A stretch of DNA of 64,000 nucleotides from a virus, in IMG/VR virus record IMGVR_UViG_3300028392_000053, positions 1-64,000 of that record; one strand, 5' to 3'. The notes under the pieces were generated by a model. The model did no database searches, was not told the DNA's origin, and saw nothing but the letters and a program-made list of their open reading frames with translations. Each line of letters starts with the position of its first letter. The first letter of the stretch is position 1. The position numbers and the translations under genes are program-made. Positions 8 through 56,736 of the stretch are shown piece by piece.

Positions 8-202
8 ATGATTATGTTTAAAGTGATAGGAAAAGAAGAATCGTTTAAGGTTCTTACACTTGCAGAAGCAATGAATCTTGCTAAAAATATGAATGAGTTT
101 GTGACCATCCGTGGTCCTGATTTTGAAGTTGTTGGCAAATTCGGTGTGGATGTTGTGACCGATCCAAACTATGATGGTTGGATATCACGGAAAAAAGGTT
201 AA
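8..202 (+). CDS. hypothetical protein
   Basis: 64-aa ORF ending just before tRNA-Cys. Confidence 0.6.
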   Translation: MIMFKVIGKEESFKVLTLAEAMNLAKNMNEFVTIRGPDFEVVGKFGVDVVTDPNYDGWISRKKG

Positions 203-203
203 T

Positions 204-279
204 GTCGGCATGACCCGAATGGCTAGGGAACGGATTGCAACCCCGTTATATGCAGGTTCGACTCCTGTTGCCGACTCCA
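204..279 (+). tRNA. trnC: tRNA-Cys(GCA)
   Basis: Acceptor GTCGGCA/TGCCGAC, anticodon GCA, TTCGA T-loop, encoded CCA. Confidence 0.92.
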
Positions 280-357
280 CTTTTCATAAAGGTTGTTTTT
301 ATGACCTTTATGACTGGTTTTTGTTCGTAATGGCTCTTTTTAAGACCTTTATGACAG

Positions 358-418
358 TGTTGTTTTTTAACAACAACATGCAAATAGATGTTGACAAAGC
401 CGCTGGTTCTGTTATACT
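358..418 (+). promoter_or_regulatory. sigma70-type promoter with upstream TGTTG-N8-CAACA palindrome
   Basis: Palindrome 358-375, TTGACA 391-396, TATACT 413-418. Confidence 0.7.
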
Positions 419-463
419 CTATGCATAGATTGAGAAATCAATAAGTAACTGCGAAAAAGCAGA

Positions 464-524
464 TGTTGTTTTTAAGCAACAAAGCGAAAAAAGTAGTTGC
501 CAAGAAAGATAGTTGTGTTATAAT
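464..524 (+). promoter_or_regulatory. sigma70-type promoter with upstream TGTTG-N8-CAACA palindrome
   Basis: Palindrome 464-481, TTGCCA 497-502, TGnTATAAT ending 524. Confidence 0.7.
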
Positions 525-591
525 AGACACATAGCAACAAATGATTGAGTCAGTTGCAAGAAAGTTCTTTAAAAAGTTAAGTGTAATTTGT

Positions 592-666
592 GCTCCTGTC
601 GTCTACTGGCTAGGACGCTGCCCTTTCAAGGCGGAAAAGAGGGATCGAAACCCTTCAGGAGTACCA
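592..666 (+). tRNA. trnE: tRNA-Glu(TTC)
   Basis: Cloverleaf, anticodon loop CTTTCAA, CCA. Confidence 0.92.
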
Positions 667-880
667 TATTAAAATGCATTAGGTTACCAACCCAGTAGGT
701 ACCTTAGCAGAGAACTATTCCTAGTGACGGCTAGGCTCTGCTAAGACTACATGAAGCCCCCCGAAGGTGCTGGAACAAGTTGGAATGTAATGTGTTTGAC
801 AAACAAGTCCGTGGACGGCACGGTAGGGCAGGATCAAAACTGTTATTTTTGTCAAACATCCTAGTGTGTTTTAATATGGT
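663..880 (+). ncRNA. structured ncRNA closed by 21-bp stem (family B)
   Basis: 663-683 pairs with 860-880 with G-U pairs; internal TGTTTGACAAA/TTTGTCAAACA helix; no ORF. Confidence 0.65.
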
Positions 881-882
881 AG

Positions 883-1010
883 TGTCATTTGTTTTGTTGA
901 TGTAAGCCATGAGGGAAACGTCAACCTTGAGTAACTATGTACAGAAACGGTAATTGTTGCAACTGACTCCGTTGAGCATAGCAAATAGTGCGTCAACAAA
1001 ACAAATGATA
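883..1010 (+). ncRNA. structured ncRNA closed by 22-bp stem
   Basis: TGTCATTTGTTTTGTTGATGTA pairs with TGCGTCAACAAAACAAATGATA; ends 1 nt before tRNA-Lys. Confidence 0.6.
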
Positions 1011-1011
1011 T

Positions 1012-1085
1012 GGGGGTATAACTTAGTGGTAAAGTAGTAGGCTTTTAACCTATTAACCAGAGTTCAATTCTCTGTGCCCCTACCA
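1012..1085 (+). tRNA. trnK: tRNA-Lys(TTT)
   Basis: Cloverleaf, loop CTTTTAA, CCA. Confidence 0.93.
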
Positions 1086-1093
1086 AAGATTTT

Positions 1094-1159
1094 AGGATAA
1101 GTTCAGCAAACATTTATACATTTGACTTTTAATCAAAACCGTAAAAAATTATCCTGTTG
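1094..1159 (+). ncRNA. Y-RNA-like ncRNA (family A) carrying a Lys(UUU) anticodon stem-loop
   Basis: AGGATAA/TTATCCT closing stem, GTTCAGCAA motif, internal TTTGA-CTTTTAA-TCAAA. Confidence 0.75.
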
Positions 1160-1165
1160 TATTTT

Positions 1166-1241
1166 GCCCTGGTGACGGAATGGTATACGTACTGGTCTTA
1201 GAAACCAGGTTCTGAGAGTTCGAGTCTCTCCTAGGGCACCA
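1166..1241 (+). tRNA. trnL: tRNA-Leu(TAG), short variable loop
   Basis: Cloverleaf, loop CTTAGAA, 5-nt variable region, CCA. Confidence 0.9.
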
Positions 1242-1371
1242 AATCGGAAAGCAAAAACTTTCTGTTAATCCATACATTATGTGTATGGCGGGTCCAGCGG
1301 GGCATCACATGGTGTTCTTTCGGTGTCCACGTTAGAGACACGGCTAAAGTTCGTAATGCCACATATTTTTA

Positions 1372-1446
1372 GGTCTTAAAGTGTTCATGGACGCACACAT
1401 GCCTGTCACGCATGAAGAAGGGGATCGTTACCCCTTAAGACCGCCA
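1372..1446 (+). tRNA. trnD: tRNA-Asp(GTC)
   Basis: Cloverleaf, loop CTGTCAC, GCCA end. Confidence 0.9.
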
Positions 1447-1452
1447 AGATTT

Positions 1453-1526
1453 CCTCCGTTAGCTCAATGGTAGAGCAATCGGCTGATAACCGATAGACAG
1501 AAGTTCAATTCTTCTACAGAGGACCA
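1453..1526 (+). tRNA. trnI: tRNA-Ile(GAT)
   Basis: Cloverleaf, loop CTGATAA, CCA. Confidence 0.9.
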
Positions 1527-1532
1527 AGTTTT

Positions 1533-1590
1533 AGAATCCATTCAGCAAATAAAAACTTTCACTGGAAATGAAAAAAAGCGGATTCTGTTG
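1533..1590 (+). ncRNA. Y-RNA-like ncRNA (family A) carrying a Ser(GGA) anticodon stem-loop
   Basis: AGAATCC/GGATTCT closing stem, ATTCAGCAA motif, internal TTTCA-CTGGAAA-TGAAA. Confidence 0.75.
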
Positions 1591-1597
1591 TATTTTT

Positions 1598-1685
1598 GGA
1601 GCCTGTTCCCTTCAGCGGACTGTAAATCCGTTGCCTTTAATTGGAGGGTGGTTGGCGGATGGTTCGATTCCTTCAGGCTCCACCA
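1598..1685 (+). tRNA. trnY: atypical tRNA-Tyr(GTA) lacking a canonical D-arm
   Basis: Acceptor GGAGCCT/AGGCTCC-ACCA, loop CTGTAAA, T-loop TTCGATT; only ~10 nt between acceptor and anticodon stems. Confidence 0.7.
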
Positions 1686-1687
1686 GT

Positions 1688-1716
1688 TGCCAACATATAT
1701 AAAGTATGTTATAATA
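1688..1716 (+). promoter_or_regulatory. sigma70-type promoter inside tRNA array
   Basis: TTGCCA followed by TGTTATAAT just upstream of tRNA-fMet. Confidence 0.6.
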
Positions 1717-1723
1717 GTTTTAT

Positions 1724-1798
1724 CGCGGGATAGGAAAGAGGTAATCCGCTAGGTTCATACCCTAGAGATCGGTGGTTCAATTCCACCTCCCGCAACCA
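1724..1798 (+). tRNA. trnM: tRNA-fMet(CAT), initiator-like
   Basis: C1:A72 mismatch, CAT anticodon, CCA. Confidence 0.85.
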
Positions 1799-1804
1799 GT
1801 TTTC

Positions 1805-1878
1805 GCCCTATTAGTATAATGGTATTACACCTGTTTTGTAATCAGGTTACGGCAGTTCGATTCTGTCATGGGGCACCA
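1805..1878 (+). tRNA. trnT: tRNA-Thr(TGT)
   Basis: Cloverleaf, loop TTTGTAA, CCA. Confidence 0.92.
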
Positions 1879-1887
1879 AGTTTTTTT

Positions 1888-1961
1888 GCGGGGTTAGTTT
1901 AATGGTAAAACTACAGATTTCCAATCTGTTGTTGAGAGTTCGATTCTCTCACCCCGCTCCA
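1888..1961 (+). tRNA. trnG: tRNA-Gly(TCC)
   Basis: Cloverleaf, loop TTTCCAA, TCCA end. Confidence 0.93.
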
Positions 1962-1967
1962 GTTTAT

Positions 1968-2033
1968 GCAGTCGGATATTAACCGTGTTGGGGTCCACCC
2001 AATATCTACGTGGGAATCGTAGTGACTGCTCCA
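1968..2033 (+). ncRNA. 66-nt miniature tRNA-like RNA ending TCCA (Gly-like)
   Basis: GCAGTC/GACTGC acceptor-like stem, three hairpins, central loop GGTCCAC, no TTCG T-loop. Confidence 0.6.
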
Positions 2034-2038
2034 GTTTT

Positions 2039-2112
2039 CTCGGTGTGGTGAAATGGTATCATGCATGGTTTGGGACCATGTGGCGAAGGTTCGATTCCTT
2101 CTACCGAGACCA
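2039..2112 (+). tRNA. trnP: tRNA-Pro(TGG)
   Basis: Cloverleaf, loop TTTGGGA, CCA. Confidence 0.92.
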
Positions 2113-2130
2113 GTTTTATAGTTAGAATAT

Positions 2131-2206
2131 TCCGGTGAAGCAAACTAGGTGTGGGCAGAGGACTGTTAATCCTTGAAGCCAGGTTCGAATCCTGGGACCG
2201 GAGCCA
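2131..2206 (+). tRNA. trnN: tRNA-Asn(GTT)
   Basis: Cloverleaf, loop CTGTTAA, GCCA. Confidence 0.88.
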
Positions 2207-2211
2207 ATTTT

Positions 2212-2285
2212 GGGGAATTAGTATAATGGTATTACGGCAGCCTTGCAAGTTGTTCATAGGAGTTCGATTCTCCTATTCTCCACCA
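2212..2285 (+). tRNA. trnA: tRNA-Ala(TGC)
   Basis: Cloverleaf, G3:U70, loop CTTGCAA, CCA. Confidence 0.93.
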
Positions 2286-2291
2286 AATTTA

Positions 2292-2366
2292 GGTGATATG
2301 ACGTAGATGGATGCGTAACGGTTTCATAAGCCGATGAGGAAGGCTCGGTACCTTCTATCACCACCA
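2292..2366 (+). tRNA. trnM: tRNA-Met(CAT)
   Basis: Cloverleaf, loop TTCATAA, atypical T-loop CTCGGTA, CCA. Confidence 0.82.
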
Positions 2367-2380
2367 AAAGATACGAAACT

Positions 2381-2388
2381 TATAAATA
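2381..2388 (+). promoter_or_regulatory. T4-type late promoter TATAAATA
   Basis: Exact T4 gp55 consensus upstream of RBS AAGGAG and HNH ORF. Confidence 0.6.
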
Positions 2389-2411
2389 GTTCGTATACTT
2401 AAGGAGATAAC

Positions 2412-2840
2412 ATGAAAATATGTTCTTGTTGTAAAATAGAATATCCAATAGAAAAATTTGCCTTTAAAAATAAGGCATTAGATAAAAGAAATGCAATGTG
2501 TGATGATTGTAGGCAAGAGAGACAAAAACTTTCTTATTATAAACACCACGAAACGAATTTGAAAAGAATTAAACAATATAAAAAAGACAATAAAGAATGG
2601 TTTTTCGAAATGAAAAATAAACTATCTTGTTGTGTTTGTGGTGAATCGGAATCTTATTGTTTAGATTTTCACCATCTTGATGTTGCTAAAAAAGAGTTTG
2701 ATATTTCCACAAAAGTGGATGCTAGTAAAAATAAAATTTTAGAAGAAATCAATAAGTGTGCTTGTCTATGTGCAAATTGTCACAGAAAACATCACGCCGG
2801 CAAATTAAATGCGCCTTTGGTGAAACTGGATATCACATGA
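2412..2840 (+). CDS. HNH endonuclease (zinc-finger type)
   Basis: CxxC pairs, LDFHH...LCANCHRKHH; RBS AAGGAG; 3' end overlaps tRNA-Arg. Confidence 0.85.
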   Translation: MKICSCCKIEYPIEKFAFKNKALDKRNAMCDDCRQERQKLSYYKHHETNLKRIKQYKKDNKEWFFEMKNKLSCCVCGESESYCLDFHHLDVAKKEFDISTKVDASKNKILEEINKCACLCANCHRKHHAGKLNAPLVKLDIT

Positions 2841-2886
2841 GTCTACGAAATTCAGATTGGGGATTCGAATTCCTCAGGGCGCACCA
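2811..2886 (+). tRNA. trnR: tRNA-Arg(ACG)
   Basis: GCGCCTT/AGGGCGC-ACCA, loop CTACGAA. Confidence 0.9.
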
Positions 2887-2903
2887 ATTTTTAGGAGTTT
2901 TAA

Positions 2904-3038
2904 ATGGCTAATGTTAAAAAAGGCAATCTGACTGGTGCTCCACAATGGTGGAAACACCTCAAAGATTTCAAACGAGTGTTTTGGAAAACAGAACGCAAGG
3001 CTCAACAAAAAGACCTAAAAGGAAGATTGTATGAGTGA
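2904..3038 (+). CDS. small basic hypothetical protein (44 aa, MANVKKGNLTGAPQWWKHLK...)
   Basis: RBS AGGAG, overlaps start of next ORF; below ORF-track cutoff. Confidence 0.6.
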   Translation: MANVKKGNLTGAPQWWKHLKDFKRVFWKTERKAQQKDLKGRLYE

Positions 3039-3237
3039 TGGTGGAAAAGGTTCGTCACCCAGACCTTATAGTGTTTCGCAAAACGAATTCTCTAAGAATT
3101 GGGACACAATCTTTAGAAAAGATCCACGGGAAATTGAGGATCAAAAAAATGAAGATGAGGCTTTTGAAGAAATTTCACGGAGAGTCCTAGATATGCCTGG
3201 AACAATTGGTTCAGCTAAAATTGTTTTTTCCGTGTGA
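3031..3237 (+). CDS. hypothetical protein
   Basis: 68-aa ORF starting MSDGGKGSSPRP. Confidence 0.65.
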   Translation: MSDGGKGSSPRPYSVSQNEFSKNWDTIFRKDPREIEDQKNEDEAFEEISRRVLDMPGTIGSAKIVFSV

Positions 3238-3258
3238 TTCAGAAGTTAAAAATAATAT

Positions 3259-3332
3259 GTCTCGATAGTGTAATGGCAGCACTGCGGTCTCCAAAACCGT
3301 AAGTCTAGGTTCGAGTCCTAGTCGGGATGCCA
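3259..3332 (+). tRNA. trnW: tRNA-Trp(CCA)
   Basis: Cloverleaf, loop CTCCAAA, GCCA. Confidence 0.92.
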
Positions 3333-3346
3333 AATAAGGAAATGAT

Positions 3347-3838
3347 ATGAAAAATTTTGATATCCAAAAAGTAAAAGATTTTATTTTGGCTCAAGGACCA
3401 GACACACGTGTTTACCTTGGTGCAGACTCCGAACGTATGCGTGTAAACGGAGTTTGGTATGCGGATTACGCTTTGGCTGTCGTTGTTCATATCGATGGTT
3501 GTCACGGATGTAAAATCTTCGGATTTGTTGACCGTGAATTAGATTATGACCACAAGAAGTCCAAGCCTGCAATGCGTTTGATGACAGAAGTTTACAAAGT
3601 ATCCGCTCTGTTCCAAGAAATGCAGGATGTATTGGAAGACCGTCACGTTGAAGTTCACTTGGACCTTAACAAGTCAACTGAACACGGTTCTTCTTGTGTT
3701 GTTCAACAAGCAATTGGTTATATCAAAGGTACATGTAACATGACACCAATGGTTAAGCCAGATGCGCCGGCCGCTTCTTTCTGTGCAGACCGTCTAAAGC
3801 GGATTCTAGCAGAACAAGAATTGACCGAAGCCCACTAA
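3347..3838 (+). CDS. RNase H-like YkuK (DUF458) family protein
   Basis: YLGADS, RLMTEV, EVHLDLN, ASFCAD motifs. Confidence 0.75.
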   Translation: MKNFDIQKVKDFILAQGPDTRVYLGADSERMRVNGVWYADYALAVVVHIDGCHGCKIFGFVDRELDYDHKKSKPAMRLMTEVYKVSALFQEMQDVLEDRHVEVHLDLNKSTEHGSSCVVQQAIGYIKGTCNMTPMVKPDAPAASFCADRLKRILAEQELTEAH

Positions 3839-3877
3839 TCTCCTACATAAGGGTTTAACTACCCTTAGGAGATTAGT

Positions 3878-4261
3878 ATGGCTAGAAAACCAAATTTAGC
3901 AAAGACTGCGAATAGAGATACACACGTTGGTCATGGAATGGATAGAAGTCCTAAATGGCCTGGTGTTCAGAAACTACATTTGAAGTTTCATCCTGTTTGC
4001 GAATCTTGTGGTTCAACTAACAATTTGAATGTCCATCATAAGAAGCCATTCCATTTGTTTCCAGAACATGAATTGGATTTAAATAATCTAATTACACTTT
4101 GTATGGATCCATTGAAAGAGTGTCATATTAAAATTGGACATGGTGATAACTTTAAAGACTACAATCCAGAAGTAGAAACAGATGCACAAAAAGTTCGATT
4201 AGATGTTAATTTATTTGAATCGGTTGTAGCAGAAGCAAAGAAGAAACGTTTAATATCTTAA
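3878..4261 (+). CDS. HNH endonuclease
   Basis: CESCG...NVHHKKP...NLITLC...CHIKIGH. Confidence 0.8.
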   Translation: MARKPNLAKTANRDTHVGHGMDRSPKWPGVQKLHLKFHPVCESCGSTNNLNVHHKKPFHLFPEHELDLNNLITLCMDPLKECHIKIGHGDNFKDYNPEVETDAQKVRLDVNLFESVVAEAKKKRLIS

Positions 4262-4302
4262 ACACGGCTGGACCCTCTGCGAAAGTGCGGTCCAGTTCTC
4301 AT

Positions 4303-4376
4303 GCGGGTATGATGTAATGGTAGCTTATGACCTTGCCAAGGTTAATGTGAGAGTTCGATTCTCTCTACCCGCTCCA
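4303..4376 (+). tRNA. trnG: tRNA-Gly(GCC)
   Basis: Cloverleaf, loop TTGCCAA, TCCA. Confidence 0.92.
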
Positions 4377-4384
4377 GTTTTTAT

Positions 4385-4459
4385 GTGGTTGTTAGTTTAG
4401 TGGCAAAACCGCGGGTTGTGATTCCGCTATCACGGGTTCGATTCCCGTACATCCACCCA
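4385..4459 (+). tRNA. trnH: tRNA-His(GTG)
   Basis: G-1:C73, loop TTGTGAT, CCA. Confidence 0.92.
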
Positions 4460-4478
4460 ATTTTATTAAGGATATTTT

Positions 4479-4718
4479 ATGACGTATGTTCCATTGAATC
4501 GTAATGTAATTGTTGAACGAAAAGCACCAGAGAAAGTTTCTGCTGGTGGTATCATTCTTCAATCTTCACTTGAACCAGACCGTGCAACTGTTGTTGCTAC
4601 CTCTGACGAATCCCTTTCAATTGGTGAAGAACTATTGATTAATTGGAACAAAGCATATAAGATTGAAAATGAAACATATCGTATTCACATTGATGATGTG
4701 ATTGCAGTATTTGAATAA
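4479..4718 (+). CDS. groES: GroES-like co-chaperonin
   Basis: PLNRNVIVER...SAGGIIL mobile loop...DDVIAV. Confidence 0.85.
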   Translation: MTYVPLNRNVIVERKAPEKVSAGGIILQSSLEPDRATVVATSDESLSIGEELLINWNKAYKIENETYRIHIDDVIAVFE

Positions 4719-4793
4719 GCCTTGTTAACTCAGCGGTAGAGTGCCCTCCTTACAAGTGGGAAGCCGGCGGTTCGATCCCGTCACAAGGTACCA
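4719..4793 (+). tRNA. trnV: tRNA-Val(TAC)
   Basis: Cloverleaf, loop CTTACAA, CCA. Confidence 0.92.
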
Positions 4794-4796
4794 AGT

Positions 4797-4975
4797 TTTG
4801 TAAGTGTAGATGTAGTGAAAGTAAGGCGTCGAAAACCTTATGAGGCAACGGTTCGAGTCCGGCAACATGGCAACGGCTAAGTAACTACTATTACTACGTA
4901 CCTCTATCCTGTCCGCGGCTTTAAAGAAAATACAGGTAGAATGGTTTCGATGAGTGAGGTGGAACTACTTACAAA
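4797..4975 (+). ncRNA. putative structured ncRNA (~180 nt)
   Basis: TTTGTAAGT/ACTTACAAA closing stem, internal hairpins, T-loop-like CGGTTCGAGTCCG, no ORF. Confidence 0.5.
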
Positions 4976-5028
4976 TTCAATTTCTCCATAACACACGGAG
5001 TATAATAGGATAAGTTGTGTGTTAATTT

Positions 5029-5102
5029 GCTTTTATCGTACAGTGACAGTACACGCCCTTGGTACGGGCGAAACCCAAGTTTGATTCTTGGTAGAAGCAC
5101 CA
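5029..5102 (+). tRNA. trnT: tRNA-Thr(GGT)
   Basis: Cloverleaf, loop TTGGTAC, CCA. Confidence 0.87.
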
Positions 5103-5106
5103 ATTT

Positions 5107-5182
5107 GCGTCTTTAGCTGATATGGTTATAGCACCGGTTTGAAGCACCGAGGAAAGTGGTTCGATTCCACTAGGACGCACCA
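5107..5182 (+). tRNA. trnF: tRNA-Phe(GAA)
   Basis: Cloverleaf, loop TTGAAGC, CCA. Confidence 0.9.
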
Positions 5183-5305
5183 TATTGAAACATATTCATC
5201 ATTGGTTGGGAGCCTGTAGCGGATGGCATCCGGGACTACTCAACGAAACAGCATTAGCCAGCGTGATGAAAAGCCTCTTGACGGCGAGAGTATGTTTCAA
5301 TATGG
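5180..5305 (+). ncRNA. structured ncRNA closed by 18-bp stem (family B)
   Basis: CCATATTGAAACATATTC pairs with GAGTATGTTTCAATATGG. Confidence 0.65.
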
Positions 5306-5378
5306 GTTGTAAACTTAAGTGGTGAAGTAACCGGCTCTTAACCGGAAGAACAGAGTTCGATTCTCTGACAGCCCACCA
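5304..5378 (+). tRNA. trnK: tRNA-Lys(CTT)
   Basis: Cloverleaf, loop CTCTTAA, CCA. Confidence 0.92.
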
Positions 5379-5383
5379 AATTT

Positions 5384-5510
5384 GGAGATGTGATGTAATG
5401 GTAGCATAGCATAGCAAAAAAATTATCCTGTAAAGGATAAGTTCTGCAACAACTACGCTCTAACTCTGTAAAAGTTCTTGTGTGCGGTTCGAATCCCACC
5501 ATCTCCACCA
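5384..5510 (+). ncRNA. chimeric tRNA / family A RNA (circularly permuted, CCA-ended)
   Basis: Acceptor GGAGATG/CATCTCC-ACCA with D- and T-arms; insert TTATCCT-GTAA-AGGATAA-GTTCTGCAA plus AACT-CTGTAAA-AGTT hairpin. Confidence 0.75.
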
Positions 5511-5517
5511 ATTTTAT

Positions 5518-5593
5518 GCCCCGATGACGGAATGGTATACGTGCTTGATTCAAAATCAAGATTCTGTGGGTTCGAGTCCCACTTGGGGTACCA
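5518..5593 (+). tRNA. trnL: tRNA-Leu(CAA), short variable loop
   Basis: Cloverleaf, loop TTCAAAA, CCA. Confidence 0.9.
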
Positions 5594-5594
5594 T

Positions 5595-5683
5595 GGAAGA
5601 TGCAGTAAGATGGTTCTTACACCTGCTTGGAAAGCAGGCCACTGGCTTTGCCGGTGGGGGTTCAATTCCTCCTTCTTCCACCA
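5595..5683 (+). tRNA. trnS: tRNA-Ser(GGA)
   Basis: Long variable arm, loop TTGGAAA, CCA. Confidence 0.9.
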
Positions 5684-5684
5684 T

Positions 5685-5759
5685 GTCTCTGTAGTTCAAC
5701 GGATAGAATACATTCCTCCTAAGAATGGGATACAGGCTCGATTCCTGTCGGAGACACCA
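5685..5759 (+). tRNA. trnR: tRNA-Arg(CCT)
   Basis: Cloverleaf, loop CTCCTAA, CCA. Confidence 0.9.
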
Positions 5760-5820
5760 TGTTGTTTTTAGGTAACAATGCAAGAAAAGTCTTGCCAAAT
5801 TACACTTAACGTGATATAAT
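5760..5820 (+). promoter_or_regulatory. promoter for Y-like RNA + DUF2828 unit
   Basis: TGTTG-N8-TAACA 5760-5777, TTGCCA 5792-5797, 17-nt spacer, TATAAT 5815-5820. Confidence 0.75.
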
Positions 5821-5848
5821 CTTTATATGGAGATTATATAAGTTTTTT

Positions 5849-6060
5849 AGGATGGATTCAGCAATTATAAACTTAATTGACTAAAGACCCGTTACTACAG
5901 GAGGACCACCGCAAGGTGTAATTACGTAACTAGGGAATCAACCTGAATTAAATTTGACGCTGGAAAAGACAGCAAAGATGATGGTAGTCCATTAGGGTTT
6001 GAGTGGTTCAATTGCACTCCGGTTAGAGTAAACCGAAAATTACAGAACGACCATCCTGTT
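5849..6060 (+). ncRNA. long Y-RNA-like ncRNA (family A)
   Basis: AGGATGG/CCATCCT stem, ATTCAGCAA motif, multi-hairpin interior with T-arm-like GAGTGGTTCAATTGCACTC. Confidence 0.72.
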
Positions 6061-6079
6061 ATTTTATTTTGAGAGTTTT

Positions 6080-6188
6080 AGAGTAGGTTCAGCAAAACAA
6101 AACTAGCTGGTTCGATTCCAGCATTATCCACCCAAACTCGAAAGAGACTCGGATCATGTGCCATGGTGGCAATCAAACTACTCTGTTG
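6080..6188 (+). ncRNA. YrlA-like Y RNA (family A)
   Basis: AGAGTAG/CTACTCT stem, GTTCAGCAA, T-arm GCTGG-TTCGATT-CCAGC preceding a D-like hairpin. Confidence 0.78.
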
Positions 6189-6193
6189 TTTTT

Positions 6194-6314
6194 AGGTTAA
6201 GTTCCGCAAAACAAATTAATGCAAATGGAAACTGAAAGGCCGGTTCGATTCCGGGTTCCCTTAGAGGATAAAGTGTAATGGTTGCACATCGGATGCTAAA
6301 AGTTTAACCTGTTG
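6194..6314 (+). ncRNA. YrlA-like Y RNA (family A)
   Basis: AGGTTAA/TTAACCT stem, GTTCCGCAA, T-arm CCGG-TTCGATT-CCGG then D-arm GTGTAATGGTTGCAC. Confidence 0.8.
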
Positions 6315-6332
6315 ATTGAAAAGGAGTTCATT

Positions 6333-7754
6333 ATGTCAACATTTGTCGAAGCCGTTATGAATCAAGAAGCCCGTACCGAAAACGGTATGAAGGCTCGCAA
6401 GTCTACCGCCAATGCGGTGGTTGATTTGTTTTACAATGCGGGTGCATCCCGTGGAAAAGATATTAAGCCTGCATTTGCGGCTGCCTTGGCAGAGAACCGT
6501 GAATTGGCTCTCCGTGTTGCCGCATGGCTACGTGATGCACGTGGTGGTGCTGGTGAACGTCAACTGTTCCGTGATATCCTAGTGTATCTGGAAAAGACTG
6601 ATACGGAAGCCGCTAAGGCTCTGTTGGCTAAGGTGCCTGAATTGGGACGTTGGGATGACTTGTTCATCTTCAAGACCAAGGTTTTGAAAGAAGCCGCATA
6701 TACCTTGCTTGGCAACGCTTTGCGTGAAAAGAATGGTTTGGCGGCTAAGTGGTCTCCTCGCCAAGGTCCAATTGCGGCAGAAATCCGTACATTCTTCGGA
6801 ATGTCACCAAAGTTCTACCGCAAGTCTTTGGTTGAAATGACCAAGGTTGTTGAAACAAATATGTGTGCAAAGGACTGGGATTCCATTAACTTTTCACATG
6901 TTCCTTCCGTAGCGGCTGCCCGTTACAAGAAGGCCTTTAATCGTAACACCCAAACATATGCAACTTATGTTGCGGCTTTGGTAAAGGGTGACAACCCTGA
7001 AGTTAAGGTTAACGCATCTGTGGCATTCCCATATGATGTGCTGAAGGGTCGTATCTCCAACTATGGAGTTTCATTCAACAAGACCGAATTGGACTTGATT
7101 GAAGCACAATGGAATGCATTGCCTAACTATGTTGGGGATGCTAACATTCTGCCTCTAGTTGACGTATCTGGTTCTATGACCTGCACCGCAGGCAAGACCG
7201 GTAAGTTGACCTGTTTGGAAGTTGCAGTCTCTTTGGGATTGTACCTTGCTGACAAGAACAAGGGTGCGTTCAAGGACACATTCTTGACCTTCTCTGGCAA
7301 GCCAGAATTGATGCACCTAAAAGGTGGTATCAACTCTAAGATTGACCAAATGGTTAAGTCCAACTGGGATATGAACACTGACCTGAACAAGGCCTTTGCG
7401 AAAATCCTAGACGTTGCTGTAAAAGGTAACGTAGCACAAGAAGATATGCCAGGAATGGTGTTGATTCTGTCTGACATGCAATTTGACGCTTGCGTTAAGC
7501 ATGATGACTCTGCAATCGAAATGATTGCACGTAAGTACGAAGCCGCAGGATACACTTTACCAAAGGTTGTATTCTGGAACTTGAACGCCTCATATGGTAA
7601 CTCACCTGTGAAGTTTGACAAGTCTGGTACTGCACTGGTGTCTGGTTTCTCTCCAGCCGTGGTTAAGCCACTCCTTGCTGGTGACCTAGAAACCTTCACA
7701 CCAGAATCTGTGATGCTTAAGACCATCATGGATGACCGTTACAAAGTGCTGTAA
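6333..7754 (+). CDS. DUF2828-type helical + vWA protein, Ro60/TROVE-like putative RNA-binding protein
   Basis: RTENG, LRDARGGAGER, GRWDDL, LAAKW, MIDAS DVSGS, ILSDMQFD, VFWNL, LVSGFS; RBS AAGGAG before ATG 6333. Confidence 0.8.
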   Translation: MSTFVEAVMNQEARTENGMKARKSTANAVVDLFYNAGASRGKDIKPAFAAALAENRELALRVAAWLRDARGGAGERQLFRDILVYLEKTDTEAAKALLAKVPELGRWDDLFIFKTKVLKEAAYTLLGNALREKNGLAAKWSPRQGPIAAEIRTFFGMSPKFYRKSLVEMTKVVETNMCAKDWDSINFSHVPSVAAARYKKAFNRNTQTYATYVAALVKGDNPEVKVNASVAFPYDVLKGRISNYGVSFNKTELDLIEAQWNALPNYVGDANILPLVDVSGSMTCTAGKTGKLTCLEVAVSLGLYLADKNKGAFKDTFLTFSGKPELMHLKGGINSKIDQMVKSNWDMNTDLNKAFAKILDVAVKGNVAQEDMPGMVLILSDMQFDACVKHDDSAIEMIARKYEAAGYTLPKVVFWNLNASYGNSPVKFDKSGTALVSGFSPAVVKPLLAGDLETFTPESVMLKTIMDDRYKVL

Positions 7755-7774
7755 CGCAGTGGGCACCGAAAGGT

Positions 7775-7860
7775 GTCCATTTTGAAATACATTACTGAAG
7801 TTGGTTCAGTCAGACAGGGATATCCAATTGCCTATGTCGTTAGTGTGTTTCAAAATGGAC
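7775..7860 (+). ncRNA. structured ncRNA closed by 20-bp stem (family B)
   Basis: GTCCATTTTGAAATACATTA pairs with TAGTGTGTTTCAAAATGGAC. Confidence 0.62.
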
Positions 7861-7862
7861 AT

Positions 7863-7940
7863 GCGGATGTAGCCGAATTTGGTATAGGCAATGGACTTAA
7901 AATCCATAATCTGAGGGTTCGAGTCCCTCTATCCGCACCA
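7863..7940 (+). tRNA. trnL: tRNA-Leu(TAA), short variable loop
   Basis: Cloverleaf, loop CTTAAAA, CCA. Confidence 0.9.
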
Positions 7941-7943
7941 AAT

Positions 7944-8018
7944 GCTCCGATAGCTTAATGGTAAAGCAGTGAACTCATAATTCATTGAGTCTAGGTTCAA
8001 TTCCTAGTCGGAGCACCA
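7944..8018 (+). tRNA. tRNA(CAT), Met or Ile2
   Basis: Cloverleaf, loop CTCATAA, CCA; third CAT tRNA in the array. Confidence 0.85.
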
Positions 8019-8039
8019 ATGTTTTGGATATATAAGGCC

Positions 8040-13484: not shown

Positions 13485-13790
13485 ATGAGTATTAAAGGTT
13501 TCAAACTTGTTACAGGTGAAGAAGTCATTTCAGAAACAACTATCAGTCAAGATGGTCGAGCATTGCTTAAAAATCCAATGCAACTTAGAGTTGTTCCTCC
13601 AAAAATTAATGGTGCACCACCTTCTATGGGTTTTGTGCCATTTCCAGCATTTGCAGATCAATCAAAAGAAGTTTCAATTATGATTGAACCGTTACATATC
13701 GCATACACATATGAACCAGACCAAAATATCATTGAAAACTACAATGCAATGATGTCCGGTAGTTCTTCAAATCAACTAATCACAGGTTAA
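13485..13790 (+). CDS. small T4-like conserved protein (Sm-like fold)
   Basis: KLVTGEEVI motif, position directly upstream of gp43. Confidence 0.65.
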   Translation: MSIKGFKLVTGEEVISETTISQDGRALLKNPMQLRVVPPKINGAPPSMGFVPFPAFADQSKEVSIMIEPLHIAYTYEPDQNIIENYNAMMSGSSSNQLITG

Positions 13791-55995: not shown

Positions 55996-56255
55996 TTTTT
56001 GACCTTTGTTTGATTGTATGAGTGTATTATACCACAATTGGAGAGAATGGCAACCATCCTCGGAATAGTTGACCGGCTGGCTGGGTATTGGAGTGGGGGC
56101 TTGCCTTCCCTGCTGGTTGTGGTATAATTGATCCTATGATTCGAAGCAAAGGCGGGGTGGACGTGGAGGCTGGGCACCATAATAATACACCATCCCTCCG
56201 GTCGACTATTATTTCAATGGTTGCCAAACCTGCTGGAACCTGTAGAATCCAACCC

Positions 56256-56468
56256 ATGATAAACACAAAAACCTACACCGCCGAATACCACGATAAAACC
56301 ATGGACTTCCGTGTGGTCCGCTGGACACCAATGGTTGACGGTATCCGCATGGGTACCAATGTTGACCGATTCGACACCGAACAGGAAGCCATGGAAGTGT
56401 CTCGAATCCTGAACCAAGCCGAGGACCTGAGCCTGTACCTGGACCAGTCCTGCGAATTTGATACCTGA
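56256..56468 (+). CDS. early hypothetical protein
   Basis: ORF following promoter cassette. Confidence 0.5.
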   Translation: MINTKTYTAEYHDKTMDFRVVRWTPMVDGIRMGTNVDRFDTEQEAMEVSRILNQAEDLSLYLDQSCEFDT

Positions 56469-56550
56469 CCGGATTGGTCAAGTATTATTCGAATGGTTGC
56501 CAAACCTGCTGGTTATGCTATAATTCACCCATATTTTGAAAGGACACCCA

Positions 56551-56736
56551 ATGAAATTTATGACCTTCCCCCAAGCCATGGAAATTGTCTCCCAATTCGG
56601 CTATGCTAATAAGTGCGAATCCTTATTGGTCGCCATTTCCGATATGGAAGACAATTGGGACAATTTATCGTTGGATGAAATTGCCGCCTATAACGTGATT
56701 ATATCGGAATATGATATGATTGCGGAATTGGCTTAA
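56551..56736 (+). CDS. early hypothetical protein
   Basis: Promoter plus AAGGA RBS. Confidence 0.55.
   Translation: MKFMTFPQAMEIVSQFGYANKCESLLVAISDMEDNWDNLSLDEIAAYNVIISEYDMIAELA

What the first reader, a model, noticed from the sequence alone, without database searches (positions are those of the whole stretch)
5384..5510. Circularly permuted tRNA / Y-like chimera with open acceptor end and CCA
The acceptor stem (GGAGATG/CATCTCC-ACCA), D-arm and T-arm are present. The anticodon region instead holds the family A scaffold in reversed order: TTATCCT-GTAA(GNRA)-AGGATAA-GTTCTGCAA, the same stem as the 1094 RNA. A hairpin with a Tyr-type loop (AACT-CTGTAAA-AGTT) follows. This is the circular permutation of the YrlA-like RNAs at 6080 and 6194, where the T-arm precedes the D-arm and the acceptor is closed. 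It may be an aminoacylatable Y-like RNA or an evolutionary link between tRNA and YrlA. tRNA scanners would probably call it a pseudo or intron-containing tRNA.
Basis: partly seen in the sequence, partly recalled or inferred. Interest (0 to 1): 0.88.

Follow-up and report, generated by a model that had tools for sequence, protein, structure and literature searches.

The report
tRNA-shaped handle RNA in phage
A phage gene inside its tRNA cluster makes a tRNA-shaped RNA with a normal CCA end whose anticodon arm is replaced by the same "handle" that marks the small RNAs lying before the phage's Ro60-like protein gene; it is conserved in dozens of related freshwater phages and is probably a partner RNA of that protein, not a decoding tRNA.

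Summary
Window 5384-5510 has a 7-bp acceptor stem, A73 and an encoded CCA, a D arm, a T arm with a one-base bulge, an 18-nt hairpin carrying the "family A" handle in reversed strand order, and a 4-bp hairpin with a 7-nt anticodon-like loop. It is not a one-off. Thirty-five IMG/VR contigs hold full-length homologs, giving 26 distinct sequences. Thirteen of 31 pairs show changes on both sides (0 of 500 shuffles reach this). All 5 complete genomes tested that carry it also encode the DUF2828/vWA protein.

The circular-permutation reading is supported: its 5' part matches the 3' part of a YrlA-like RNA (36 of 41 bases). It is unlikely to be a decoding tRNA-Tyr. The loop is GUA or GUG on the same acceptor stem, 19 of 36 loci also hold an ordinary tRNA-Tyr, the T-stem bulge is always kept, and ARAGORN does not call it. 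GNRA closure (6 of 26) and the shared stem with the 1094 RNA (1 of 38) are not conserved.

Binding to the protein, aminoacylation and RNA ends remain untested. The scan had already noted the handle-RNA/DUF2828 system, and this tRNA-framed form, on other DNA. My paper searches found no description.

The parts
5384..5510 (+). Whole element: 127-nt tRNA-shaped RNA with the handle in place of the anticodon arm
   Evidence: Sequence. Model R1 scores 160.1 bits. 26 distinct homologs with covariation.
5384..5390 (+). Acceptor stem, 5' strand (GGAGATG)
   Evidence: Pairs with 5500-5506. 5 of 7 pairs change on both sides among the 26 sequences.
5393..5407 (+). D arm ATGT-AATGGTA-GCAT with A14, A15, G18 and G19 equivalents
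   Evidence: Invariant in the 26 sequences, so it gives no covariation. It is 83% identical to the D-arm half of the YrlA-like RNAs of L002 and L029.
5409..5422 (+). Junction strand GCATAGC plus a run of seven A on the 5' side of the handle stem
   Evidence: AGC can pair with GCT at 5457-5459, with one compensatory change in L080. Alternatively GC can pair with GC of the GCAA motif. The junction is not resolved.
5423..5440 (+). Handle hairpin TTATCCT-GTAA-AGGATAA: the family A closing stem with its two ends joined by a loop
   Evidence: 3 of 7 pairs change on both sides. The CT/AG end is invariant. The loop varies from 4 to 6 nt. The regex for the hairpin form hits only here in the window.
5441..5449 (+). 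Handle motif GTTCTGCAA (consensus YCNGCAA) 3' of the AG strand
   Evidence: C61, G63, C64 and A65 are invariant in the 26 sequences. The same motif follows the stem in the five linear family A RNAs of the window.
5462..5476 (+). Anticodon-arm-like hairpin AACT-CTGTAAA-AGTT in the variable-region position
   Evidence: The stem covaries: AACT/AGTT in 22 sequences and CCCT/AGGG in 4. The loop is CUGUAAA in 21, CUGUGAA in 4 and UUGUAAA in 1. These loops equal the phages' own tRNA-Tyr and tRNA-His loops.
5482..5499 (+). T arm GTG[C]GG-TTCGAAT-CC-CAC with a bulged pyrimidine at 5485
   Evidence: 2 of 5 pairs change on both sides. The bulge (C or U) is kept in 26 of 26 sequences.
5500..5510 (+). Acceptor 3' strand CATCTCC, discriminator A, encoded CCA
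   Evidence: ACCA is invariant in 26 of 26 sequences. The next tRNA starts 7 nt downstream.
6333..7754 (+). DUF2828 + DUF7788 (vWA-like) protein gene, the presumed protein partner
   Evidence: Pfam E-values 1.5e-21 and 1e-48. PHROG 850 'RNA-binding protein'. Present in 5 of 5 complete genomes that hold the element.
6194..6310 (+). Linear (YrlA-like) handle RNA ending 23 nt before the start codon; the permuted counterpart of the element
   Evidence: Regex hit. A linear handle RNA ends 17-37 nt before the gene in 47 of 61 loci.
6080..6184 (+). Linear handle RNA with T arm, 7-bp acceptor, ACCC, spacer hairpin and D arm
   Evidence: Relatives keep ACCA after a covarying acceptor 3' strand.

Best explanation
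The element is a handle-tagged tRNA mimic. It is a small non-coding RNA of the phage's DUF2828 (Ro60-like) handle-RNA system, built in tRNA order instead of YrlA order.

Inferred course of events:
1. It is transcribed with the neighbouring tRNAs.
2. RNase P cuts it at G5384, and it is trimmed to the encoded CCA at 5510.
3. It folds into a tRNA-like L through the conserved D- and T-loop nucleotides.
4. In place of an anticodon arm it carries the handle: a 7-8-bp stem with a CU/AG end, an A-rich strand, and YCNGCAA.
5. The handle docks the RNA on the DUF2828/vWA protein.
6. The tRNA-like body offers a free CCA end and an anticodon-loop look-alike (GUA or GUG type) to some tRNA-recognising factor.

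Shown: the anatomy, conservation and covariation, the permutation relation to the YrlA-like RNAs, placement in tRNA arrays, and co-occurrence with the protein gene. Inferred: processing, protein binding, and the bait or effector role.

It is most simply derived from a head-to-tail pair of YrlA-like genes. It is what tRNA-processing enzymes would cut out of such a pair.
For: Structure and conservation: 26 distinct homologs, 98.1% of cells paired, 13 of 31 pairs with double changes, 0 of 500 shuffles as high. RNAalifold agrees on four helices.

Shared handle: the same stem end and motif occur in five linear RNAs of the window. In relatives a linear handle RNA ends 17-37 nt before the DUF2828 start codon in 47 of 61 loci, and 56 of 61 have at least one upstream.

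Co-occurrence: 5 of 5 complete genomes with the element encode the protein at 67-79% identity.

Permutation: 36 of 41 bases between the element's 5' part and the 3' end of a YrlA-like RNA. Linear 6080-type relatives keep a covarying 7-bp acceptor followed by ACCA.

tRNA-like placement: same strand inside tRNA arrays, with the next tRNA starting 4-10 nt after the CCA in 26 of 36 loci.

Against a decoding role: the loop is GUA or GUG on the same acceptor stem. An ARAGORN tRNA-Tyr lies in the same locus in 19 of 36 loci. The T-stem bulge is kept in 26 of 26 sequences.

Other tRNA-order chimeras with the hairpin handle but no anticodon-like hairpin exist: L093, L117 and L123.

Precedent: M. smegmatis YrlA is cut by RNase P and receives CCA in vivo (PMC4201824, passages read).
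Against: The protein is not a detectable TROVE/Ro60 by sequence. The TROVE model gives no match in the genome at E <= 10, and a profile of 25 homologs finds no Ro60 chain in the PDB. Its 'Ro-like' name rests on database labels and on earlier unchecked notes of this scan.

The element is absent from 5 of 5 other DUF2828 genomes tested and from 73 of the 78 DUF2828 loci (which reach at most 4 kb upstream of the gene). The protein therefore does not need it.

In this element the handle's ends are closed by a loop. If the protein needs free 5' and 3' ends, as Ro60 does with some ligands, it may not bind.

The invariant A73-CCA, G1-C72 and G2-C71 would also fit a chargeable RNA.
Confidence: 0.55

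Rival explanations
1. It is a working tRNA (Tyr, or His in some relatives) with a large expansion between the D arm and the anticodon arm. The AACU-CUGUAAA-AGUU hairpin would be the real anticodon arm, followed by a 4-nt variable loop. The handle would add a second function such as protein binding or protection.
For: It has a full acceptor stem, A73 and CCA, D and T arms with all the elbow nucleotides, and a 7-nt loop with U33 and the GUA anticodon. The spacing from the hairpin to the T stem (U.C pair, then UUGU) fits a class I tRNA. The window has no ARAGORN tRNA-Tyr. The Rfam tRNA model passes its threshold on the L123 homolog (33.7 bits against 29).
Against: The third 'anticodon' base is A in 22 and G in 4 of the 26 sequences, with no matching change of acceptor identity (window and L121 both have GGAGATG). 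19 of 36 loci also hold an ordinary tRNA-Tyr. The window has a syntenic tRNA-Tyr-like gene at 1598-1685. The stem has only 4 pairs plus a conserved U.C. The T-stem bulge lies where EF-Tu contacts tRNA (established knowledge, not tested). The Rfam tRNA hit uses only the acceptor, D and T arms. The frame is not closest to tRNA-Tyr.
Confidence: 0.1
2. The handle is not a protein-binding site. It would be a processing or regulatory signal, for example an RNase site or a leader that controls DUF2828 translation. The tRNA-framed copy would then be a by-product of recombination between neighbouring handle RNAs and tRNAs that is tolerated but has no function of its own.
For: A linear handle RNA abuts the ribosome-binding site of the gene in 47 of 61 loci, as a cis-acting leader would. 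The element moves around the tRNA array (14 different upstream tRNA neighbours, 11 different downstream). It is missing from most DUF2828 phages. One relative has it broken by an inserted ORF (L108).
Against: A by-product would not keep 13 covarying pairs, a conserved bulge and an invariant ACCA across relatives whose DUF2828 proteins are only 67-96% identical. Handle RNAs also lie kilobases away from the gene.
Confidence: 0.15
3. The roughly 52-nt insert (5409-5460) is an intron that is spliced out to give an ordinary 75-nt tRNA.
For: ARAGORN fails on the gene as it stands. In L108 the same place holds a 181-aa Seg-like GIY-YIG ORF, a gene type that often travels with introns.
Against: No Rfam intron family matches at E <= 10 over 5250-6400 or at E <= 1 over the L108 insert. 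Bacterial and phage tRNA introns are group I introns of about 200 nt or more in the anticodon loop (established knowledge). The insert carries the conserved, covarying handle shared with non-tRNA RNAs. The spliced product would still have a 4-bp anticodon stem and a variable anticodon. No joint was seen in RNA contigs, but cover there was too thin to count.
Confidence: 0.03
4. It is a miniature tmRNA-like molecule: a tRNA-like domain that is charged and enters stalled ribosomes.
For: The Rfam tmRNA model aligns end to end (17.8 bits, E 7.2e-5 for the 1.15-kb search). The 3' end resembles the tmRNA consensus.
Against: The score is far below the threshold of 47. Pair 3-70 is A-U or G-C, never G.U. 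There are no tag frame and no pseudoknots. It has a full D stem. The same genome already has a two-piece tmRNA (122.8 bits).
Confidence: 0.02

Closest known systems
YrlA-type bacterial and phage Y RNAs (Rfam RF02553; Chen et al. 2014, PMC4201824; Wang et al. 2018, bioRxiv 10.1101/312249; passages read)
   Same: It has a tRNA-like D/T elbow joined to a protein-binding stem that sits where the anticodon stem would be. It is encoded near the gene of a ring or vWA RNA-binding protein. M. smegmatis YrlA is opened by RNase P and receives CCA.
   Different: Here the order is that of a tRNA (D arm before T arm). The acceptor is open and its CCA is encoded, and the binding stem is closed by a loop. The motif is YCNGCAA, not GNCGAAN0-1G. 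The neighbouring protein is DUF2828, not a detectable TROVE protein. Rfam YrlA does not match the element. It matches a linear relative only below threshold (28.8 bits against 69).
Handle RNAs of DUF2828 phages, as noted earlier by this scan (unpublished AI notes e1-6126064, e1-5495724, e1-5358238 and others)
   Same: It has the same stem end, motif and A-rich strand, and the same link to the DUF2828 gene. A tRNA-framed form was noted on other DNA.
   Different: The usual members have free 5' and 3' ends forming the stem. This one has the stem as an internal hairpin and tRNA-type ends.
Thermus phage phiLo Ro60 with Yrl1 and Yrl2 (PMC12135203, passages read)
   Same: A phage-encoded Ro60-type protein has partner RNAs encoded just upstream of its gene. 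Binding was shown experimentally there.
   Different: That protein is a canonical Ro60 and its RNAs carry a CGAA motif in a stem-bulge-stem. No tRNA-like element is mentioned in that paper (the word tRNA-like occurs 0 times).
tmRNA tRNA-like domain and plant-virus tRNA-like structures
   Same: These are tRNA mimics with a free CCA end that are processed, and in those cases charged, like tRNA.
   Different: The element has no G3.U70, no messenger part and no pseudoknotted acceptor. Charging of this element is untested.
Dictyostelium Class I RNAs (Kjellin et al. 2021, PMC7919456, passages read)
   Same: As that paper describes them, they have a short stem joining the 5' and 3' ends, a conserved 11-nt motif next to the 5' strand, a 5' G and a 3' CUGU. 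This is the layout of the linear handle RNAs here (AG-N5 ... N5'-CU-GU). The lead came from earlier notes of this scan. The letters of the 11-nt motif are recalled by me and were not seen in the passages.
   Different: They are eukaryotic and no tRNA parts are described. The element itself has looped, not free, stem ends.

Membership tests
Decoding tRNA | 7-bp acceptor stem, discriminator base, 3' CCA | tested here: met
   5384-5390 pairs with 5500-5506, then ACCA. 5 of 7 pairs covary.
Decoding tRNA | D and T arms with the conserved elbow nucleotides | tested here: met
   U8, A14, A15, GG, UUCGAAU and U48 are present and nearly invariant. The T stem, however, has a conserved one-base bulge.
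Decoding tRNA | 5-bp anticodon stem directly after position 26, with a 7-nt loop whose anticodon fits the identity | tested here: not met
   A 52-nt module lies between position 26 and the hairpin. The stem is 4 bp plus U.C. The loop is GUA or GUG on the same acceptor stem.
Decoding tRNA | Recognised by tRNA finders | tested here: inconclusive
   ARAGORN makes no call, with or without introns. The Rfam tRNA model is not reported for the window copy but scores 33.7 bits against a threshold of 29 on the L123 homolog, using the acceptor, D and T arms only.
YrlA / Y RNA | Encoded beside a Ro60 (TROVE) gene | tested here: not met
   The neighbouring gene is DUF2828 + DUF7788. The TROVE model finds nothing in the genome at E <= 10, while it does hit control genomes.
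YrlA / Y RNA | GNCGAAN0-1G motif near the 5' end (PMC4201824) | tested here: not met
   The conserved motif here is YCNGCAA.
YrlA / Y RNA | T arm before D arm, acceptor-like stem closed, no free CCA (bioRxiv 312249) | tested here: not met
   The D arm comes before the T arm, the acceptor is open and the CCA is encoded.
YrlA / Y RNA | Rfam RF02553 score at or above 69 bits | tested here: not met
   No match at E <= 10 over 5250-6400.
DUF2828 handle RNAs (this scan's working class, unpublished) | 7-bp stem with a CU/AG end, YCNGCAA after the AG strand, and an A-rich run before the CU strand | tested here: met
   Seen at 5416-5449. The stem covaries and the motif is conserved.
DUF2828 handle RNAs (this scan's working class, unpublished) | Stem formed by the RNA's own 5' and 3' ends | tested here: not met
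   The two strands are joined by a loop of 4-6 nt.
DUF2828 handle RNAs (this scan's working class, unpublished) | Co-occurrence with a DUF2828 gene | tested here: met
   5 of 5 complete genomes with the element have the gene. The converse fails in 0 of 5 genomes.
DUF2828 handle RNAs (this scan's working class, unpublished) | Physical binding to the protein | not testable with these tools
tmRNA | G3.U70, tag reading frame, pseudoknots, Rfam threshold | tested here: not met
   Pair 3-70 is A-U in 18 sequences and G-C in 8. The element is only 127 nt long. It scores 17.8 bits against a threshold of 47.
Intron-containing tRNA | A recognisable self-splicing or enzyme-cut intron | tested here: not met
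   No intron family matches. Whether the RNA is spliced in vivo was not testable; the RNA contigs were too thin.

The most novel reading that the evidence does not exclude
The element would be a genome-encoded, CCA-ended and possibly aminoacylatable Y-like RNA. It would be a complete tRNA decoy held by a Ro60-like protein, offering both an acceptor end and a GUN-type anticodon loop to tRNA-targeting host enzymes such as anticodon nucleases, acceptor-end toxins or modification enzymes. It would work beside sister RNAs that display other anticodon loops.

It would also be a living intermediate showing that tRNA-order and YrlA-order mimics interconvert simply by where tRNA-processing enzymes cut a tandem array.
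Probability: 0.25. Interest if true: 0.85.

Novelty: new variant of a known kind. Interest (0 to 1): 0.64.

Why it matters
Published Y RNAs of the YrlA type are described as circularly permuted tRNAs without a free CCA end. Only one, from M. smegmatis, is known to be opened and to receive CCA after transcription.

This element encodes that open, CCA-ended form directly, in tRNA order, and it is conserved with strong covariation in at least 35 phage contigs. That makes two open questions testable:
- What is the tRNA-like half of such RNAs for? A free acceptor end invites tests of charging, EF-Tu binding and toxin targeting.
- How did these mimics arise from tRNA genes?

It also warns annotators that phage tRNA arrays hold tRNA-shaped genes that tRNA finders miss and that should not be counted as tRNA-Tyr.

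Tried and rejected
The profile search found nothing relevant: 6 hits, all with E >= 0.77 and none Ro60. NCBIfam gave nothing. The ESM Atlas returned only DUF2828 clusters and holds no structure for this protein.

RNA evidence. Six metatranscriptome runs hold small shares of the region. I laid four of them (X15-X18, contigs only). Cover over 5353-5469 was 0-2.4, and no joint lay inside the element. This gives no verdict on expression, ends or splicing. The one joint seen (6065 to 6190) comes from a relative that lacks the 6080 RNA.

Origin of the frame. A global comparison of the tRNA frame with 1161 distinct tRNAs gave no clear nearest isoacceptor. Ser, Leu and Tyr all fall at 0.77-0.80, and the measure favours long tRNAs.

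Cultured phages. blastn of 5200-6400 against 50,697 phage records hit only tRNA pieces in 27 records, and none overlaps the element.

Companion enzymes. RtcB, TGT and the CCA-adding-enzyme head domain were each found in 0 of 5 genomes, 4 of which are complete. A phage-encoded repair, queuosine or CCA partner is therefore not supported.

Alanine identity in a sister chimera. L129 7513-7632 has G3.U70 and A73. That is too few to judge conservation.

Shared stem with the 1094 RNA. It occurs in 1 of 38 strand-loci, so I rejected it as a rule.

Literature. Searches found no paper describing handle RNAs with DUF2828 or a tRNA-order Y-like RNA. The library lacks most subscription journals. PMC10870794 is not held.

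Rows left out of alignment A6:
- Duplicates: L087, L093, L104, L114, L115, L102, L088, L112, L123, L127.
- L101, cut by the contig end.
- L108, disrupted by an inserted ORF.
- L129:7513, a paralogue.
Full report
**Setting.** The window is the first 64 kb of an 84.5-kb single-contig virus record. Bases 200-8020 hold a tRNA array. ARAGORN tRNAs, none of them Tyr or Gln, and none at 5384-5510. Allowing introns or lowering the score threshold does not change this. At gathering thresholds Rfam reports 24 tRNAs and nothing at the element. A gene for a 473-aa protein with DUF2828 and DUF7788 domains starts at 6333. PHROGs names that family 'RNA-binding protein'. Of 710 phage records with a homolog, mycobacteriophage records label it 'Ro-like RNA binding protein'.

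**The observation.**
- Acceptor GGAGATG/CATCTCC, followed by A and CCA.
- D arm ATGT-AATGGTA-GCAT.
- T arm with loop TTCGAAT.
- Hairpin TTATCCT-GTAA-AGGATAA, followed by GTTCTGCAA.
- Hairpin AACT-CTGTAAA-AGTT.

One detail was missed. The T stem pairs only if C5485 bulges out (GTG[C]GG with CC-CAC).

A strict regular expression for the 'family A' pattern is AG-N5, a short gap, YCNGCA, and later the complement of N5 followed by CT. It finds the hairpin (reversed) form only at 5423.

**Is it more than chance?** A search with the DUF2828 protein fetched 78 related IMG/VR loci. BLAST and a covariance model built from the first five sequences found the element in 5 of them, at 151.7-160.1 bits. The best ordinary tRNA scored 36.6 bits.

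Two exact-pattern scans of IMG/VR widened the set:
- A 20-mer from the anticodon-like hairpin gave 41 stretches. Of these, 27 hold the full element, 1 is cut by a contig end, 1 is disrupted, and 12 are unrelated coding sequence.
- A 19-mer from the D arm gave 34 stretches, of which 11 were new. Eight of the new ones hold the element and 3 are unrelated.

That makes 35 contigs and 26 distinct full-length sequences. On these:
- 98.1% of cells form standard pairs.
- 13 of 31 pairs change on both sides: acceptor 5 of 7, handle hairpin 3 of 7, anticodon-like hairpin 2 of 4, T stem 2 of 5.
- No shuffle out of 500 reaches the observed values.
- Sliding the partners by 1-3 columns drops pairing to 38-45%.

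RNAalifold, run without my structure, recovers the acceptor, the handle hairpin, the anticodon-like hairpin and the bulged T arm.

Three caveats apply. The D stem never varies, so nothing can be said for it. The invariance of the D arm and of the 20-mer is partly built in by how I collected sequences, although each scan does show variation in the other region. The helix joining the handle to the tRNA core is unresolved. One option is AGC with GCT, supported by one compensatory change in L080. The other is GC with the GC of GCAA.

**What varies and what does not.**
- ACCA, G1-C72 and G2-C71 are invariant.
- The bulge is C or U in 26 of 26 sequences.
- The handle stem changes freely except for its CU/AG end.
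- The handle loop is GTAA in only 6 of 26. Elsewhere it is GACA (8), GATA (1), GTTTT (2) or a 6-nt loop (9). GNRA closure is therefore not a feature.
- The anticodon-like stem is AACT/AGTT (22) or CCCT/AGGG (4).
- Its loop is CUGUAAA (21), CUGUGAA (4) or UUGUAAA (1).

CUGUAAA is the commonest loop of these phages' own tRNA-Tyr (27 of 39 calls). CUGUGAA is a common loop of their tRNA-His (29 of 80 calls).

**Is it a tRNA-Tyr?** Probably not.
- The third anticodon base switches between A and G while the acceptor stays the same (window and L121 both have GGAGATG).
- An ARAGORN tRNA-Tyr lies on the same strand of the same partial locus in 19 of 36 cases.
- The window has a tRNA-Tyr-like gene at 1598-1685, in the place after tRNA-Ile(GAU) where relatives have tRNA-Tyr.
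- The hairpin stem has 4 pairs plus a conserved U.C.
- The conserved bulge sits in the part of the T stem that EF-Tu contacts (textbook knowledge, not tested).
- The Rfam tRNA model does pass its threshold on the L123 homolog (33.7 bits against 29). However, its alignment uses only the acceptor, D and T arms and skips 67 nt.
- The tRNA frame is not closest to tRNA-Tyr. Ser, Leu and Tyr tie at 0.77-0.80.

The intron reading also lacks support. No intron family matches. The insert is too short for a group I intron. It carries a conserved module shared with RNAs that are not tRNAs.

**Relation to the YrlA-like RNAs.**
- Positions 8-48 of the element align with the 3' end of the 6194-type RNA of L029 at 36 of 41 bases. 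The score is 47 against a maximum of 22 in 500 shuffles.
- Positions 51-69 align with the first 19 bases of that RNA at 17 of 19. This is not significant alone (score 28 against a shuffle maximum of 30), but it lies in the order a circular permutation predicts.
- A different tRNA-order chimera, L117 5519-5618, matches the window's 6080 RNA in the same crosswise way, at 37 of 39 bases (score 49 against 33).
- Many linear 6080-type RNAs of relatives have this layout: T arm, a covarying 7-bp acceptor 3' strand, ACCA, a spacer hairpin, the acceptor 5' strand, and the D arm. That is the junction of two tRNA-like units.

From this I infer that the element is what RNase P and 3' trimming would release from a head-to-tail pair of such genes. 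I also infer that the two topologies give the same folded object: a tRNA-like L with an open CCA end and the handle where the anticodon arm should be. M. smegmatis YrlA is known to be cut by RNase P and to receive CCA (PMC4201824, passages). Published YrlA RNAs are otherwise described as permuted tRNAs lacking a free CCA end (bioRxiv 312249, passages).

**Link to the protein.**
- In 47 of 61 loci with at least 450 nt of upstream sequence, a linear handle RNA ends 17-37 nt before the DUF2828 start codon. In 56 of 61 there is at least one upstream. Downstream, only one locus has any.
- All 5 complete (about 170 kb) genomes tested that hold the element encode the protein.
- None of 5 other DUF2828 genomes holds the element. 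It is therefore an optional member of the set.
- By sequence, the protein is not a TROVE/Ro60 protein.
- That it folds like Ro60 is stated in earlier notes of this scan.
- A canonical phage Ro60 does bind RNAs encoded just upstream of its gene (PMC12135203, passages).

**Context of the family.**
- Among 92 distinct short linear handle RNAs, 61 enclose an anticodon-arm-like hairpin. The loops are of Thr(UGU), Ser(GGA), Asn, Lys, Arg(UCU), Tyr and other types.
- Other members enclose a D arm, anticodon arm and T arm, with the handle replacing the acceptor.
- Displaying tRNA parts is thus the common theme. The element displays the acceptor end, the elbow and a GUN-type loop at once.
- RtcB, TGT and a CCA-adding enzyme are absent from 5 of 5 genomes tested.

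**Placement.**
- The element always lies in a tRNA array on the tRNA strand, between varying tRNAs.
- The next tRNA starts 4-10 nt after its CCA in 26 of 36 loci.
- In the window it lies upstream of the one strong promoter (5792-5820, 11 of 12 matches), which precedes the three tandem handle RNAs and the gene. It therefore belongs to the preceding tRNA transcription unit.

**Verdict.** The most likely reading (0.55) is a handle-tagged tRNA mimic that partners the DUF2828 protein. A decoding tRNA (0.10), a function-less by-product of a cis signal (0.15), a spliced tRNA (0.03) and a tmRNA-like RNA (0.02) are less likely.

With respect to print it is a new variant of a known kind, the tRNA-like Y RNAs. 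My seven literature searches found no description, with the limits stated above. Within this scan, the system and a tRNA-framed copy had already been noted on other DNA.

Noticed in passing
genome G000:C1:77925-78276 (outside the window; locus L136 226-577): The phage record carries a two-piece tmRNA of the betaproteobacterial type (Rfam beta_tmRNA 122.8 bits against 84; tmRNA_permuted 112.7 bits). ARAGORN reads the tag as ANDSQFALAA. This hints at a betaproteobacterial host.
   Followed up: partly
window 1598-1685: A tRNA-Tyr-like gene has an acceptor stem, a CTGTAAA anticodon arm, a T arm and CCA, but no ordinary D arm. It lies after tRNA-Ile(GAU), where relatives have a normal tRNA-Tyr. ARAGORN and Rfam miss it. 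Similar copies are at L008 516-603, L015 147-234 and L129 7414-7503.
   Followed up: partly
L108 5694-6330 (minus strand): In one relative the element is split. Its first 25 bases and its last roughly 60 bases flank a 181-aa ORF with weak GIY-YIG/SegE matches (E 0.008, below cut-off). The ORF replaces the handle module. No intron family matches there.
   Followed up: partly
L129 7513-7632 and L250 (minus strand, near 13570): A sister tRNA-order chimera has the hairpin handle, a regular T stem, an ACGATAA or ACGTTAA loop hairpin, and a G3.U70 pair with A73 (the alanine identity set). Only two near-identical copies were found.
   Followed up: partly
L093 (minus strand, near 5319), L117 5519-5618, L123 near 5657: Three more tRNA-order RNAs have an open acceptor, NCCA, a D-like hairpin, the hairpin handle and a T arm, but no anticodon-like hairpin. 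The discriminator is A or G.
   Followed up: partly
window 6080-6184 and relatives: Linear handle RNAs of this type keep a covarying 7-bp acceptor followed by ACCA or ACCC and a spacer hairpin. They look like RNase P substrates, as shown for M. smegmatis YrlA.
   Followed up: partly
L108 6333-6446 (minus strand): The Rfam YrlA model matches a linear handle RNA end to end, but below threshold (28.8 bits against 69, E 0.0007).
   Followed up: no
window 1094-1155, 1533-1586 and 92 short relatives: 61 of 92 distinct short handle RNAs enclose an anticodon-arm-like hairpin. The loops copy those of tRNA-Thr(UGU) (19), Ser(GGA), Asn, Lys, Arg(UCU), Tyr and others.
   Followed up: partly
window 56070-56634: With introns allowed, ARAGORN calls a tRNA-Thr with a 482-nt intron. 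Rfam reports nothing there at gathering thresholds. It is probably a false call.
   Followed up: no
window 2412-2840 and 3878-4261: Two HNH endonuclease ORFs (PHROG matches) lie between tRNA genes of the array.
   Followed up: no
window 5849-6400 in RNA runs X15 and X17: Freshwater metatranscriptome contigs of close relatives cover the 5849 RNA (193-nt contig, 3 differences) and the DUF2828 gene. One contig skips 6066-6189, so it comes from a relative without the 6080 RNA.
   Followed up: partly
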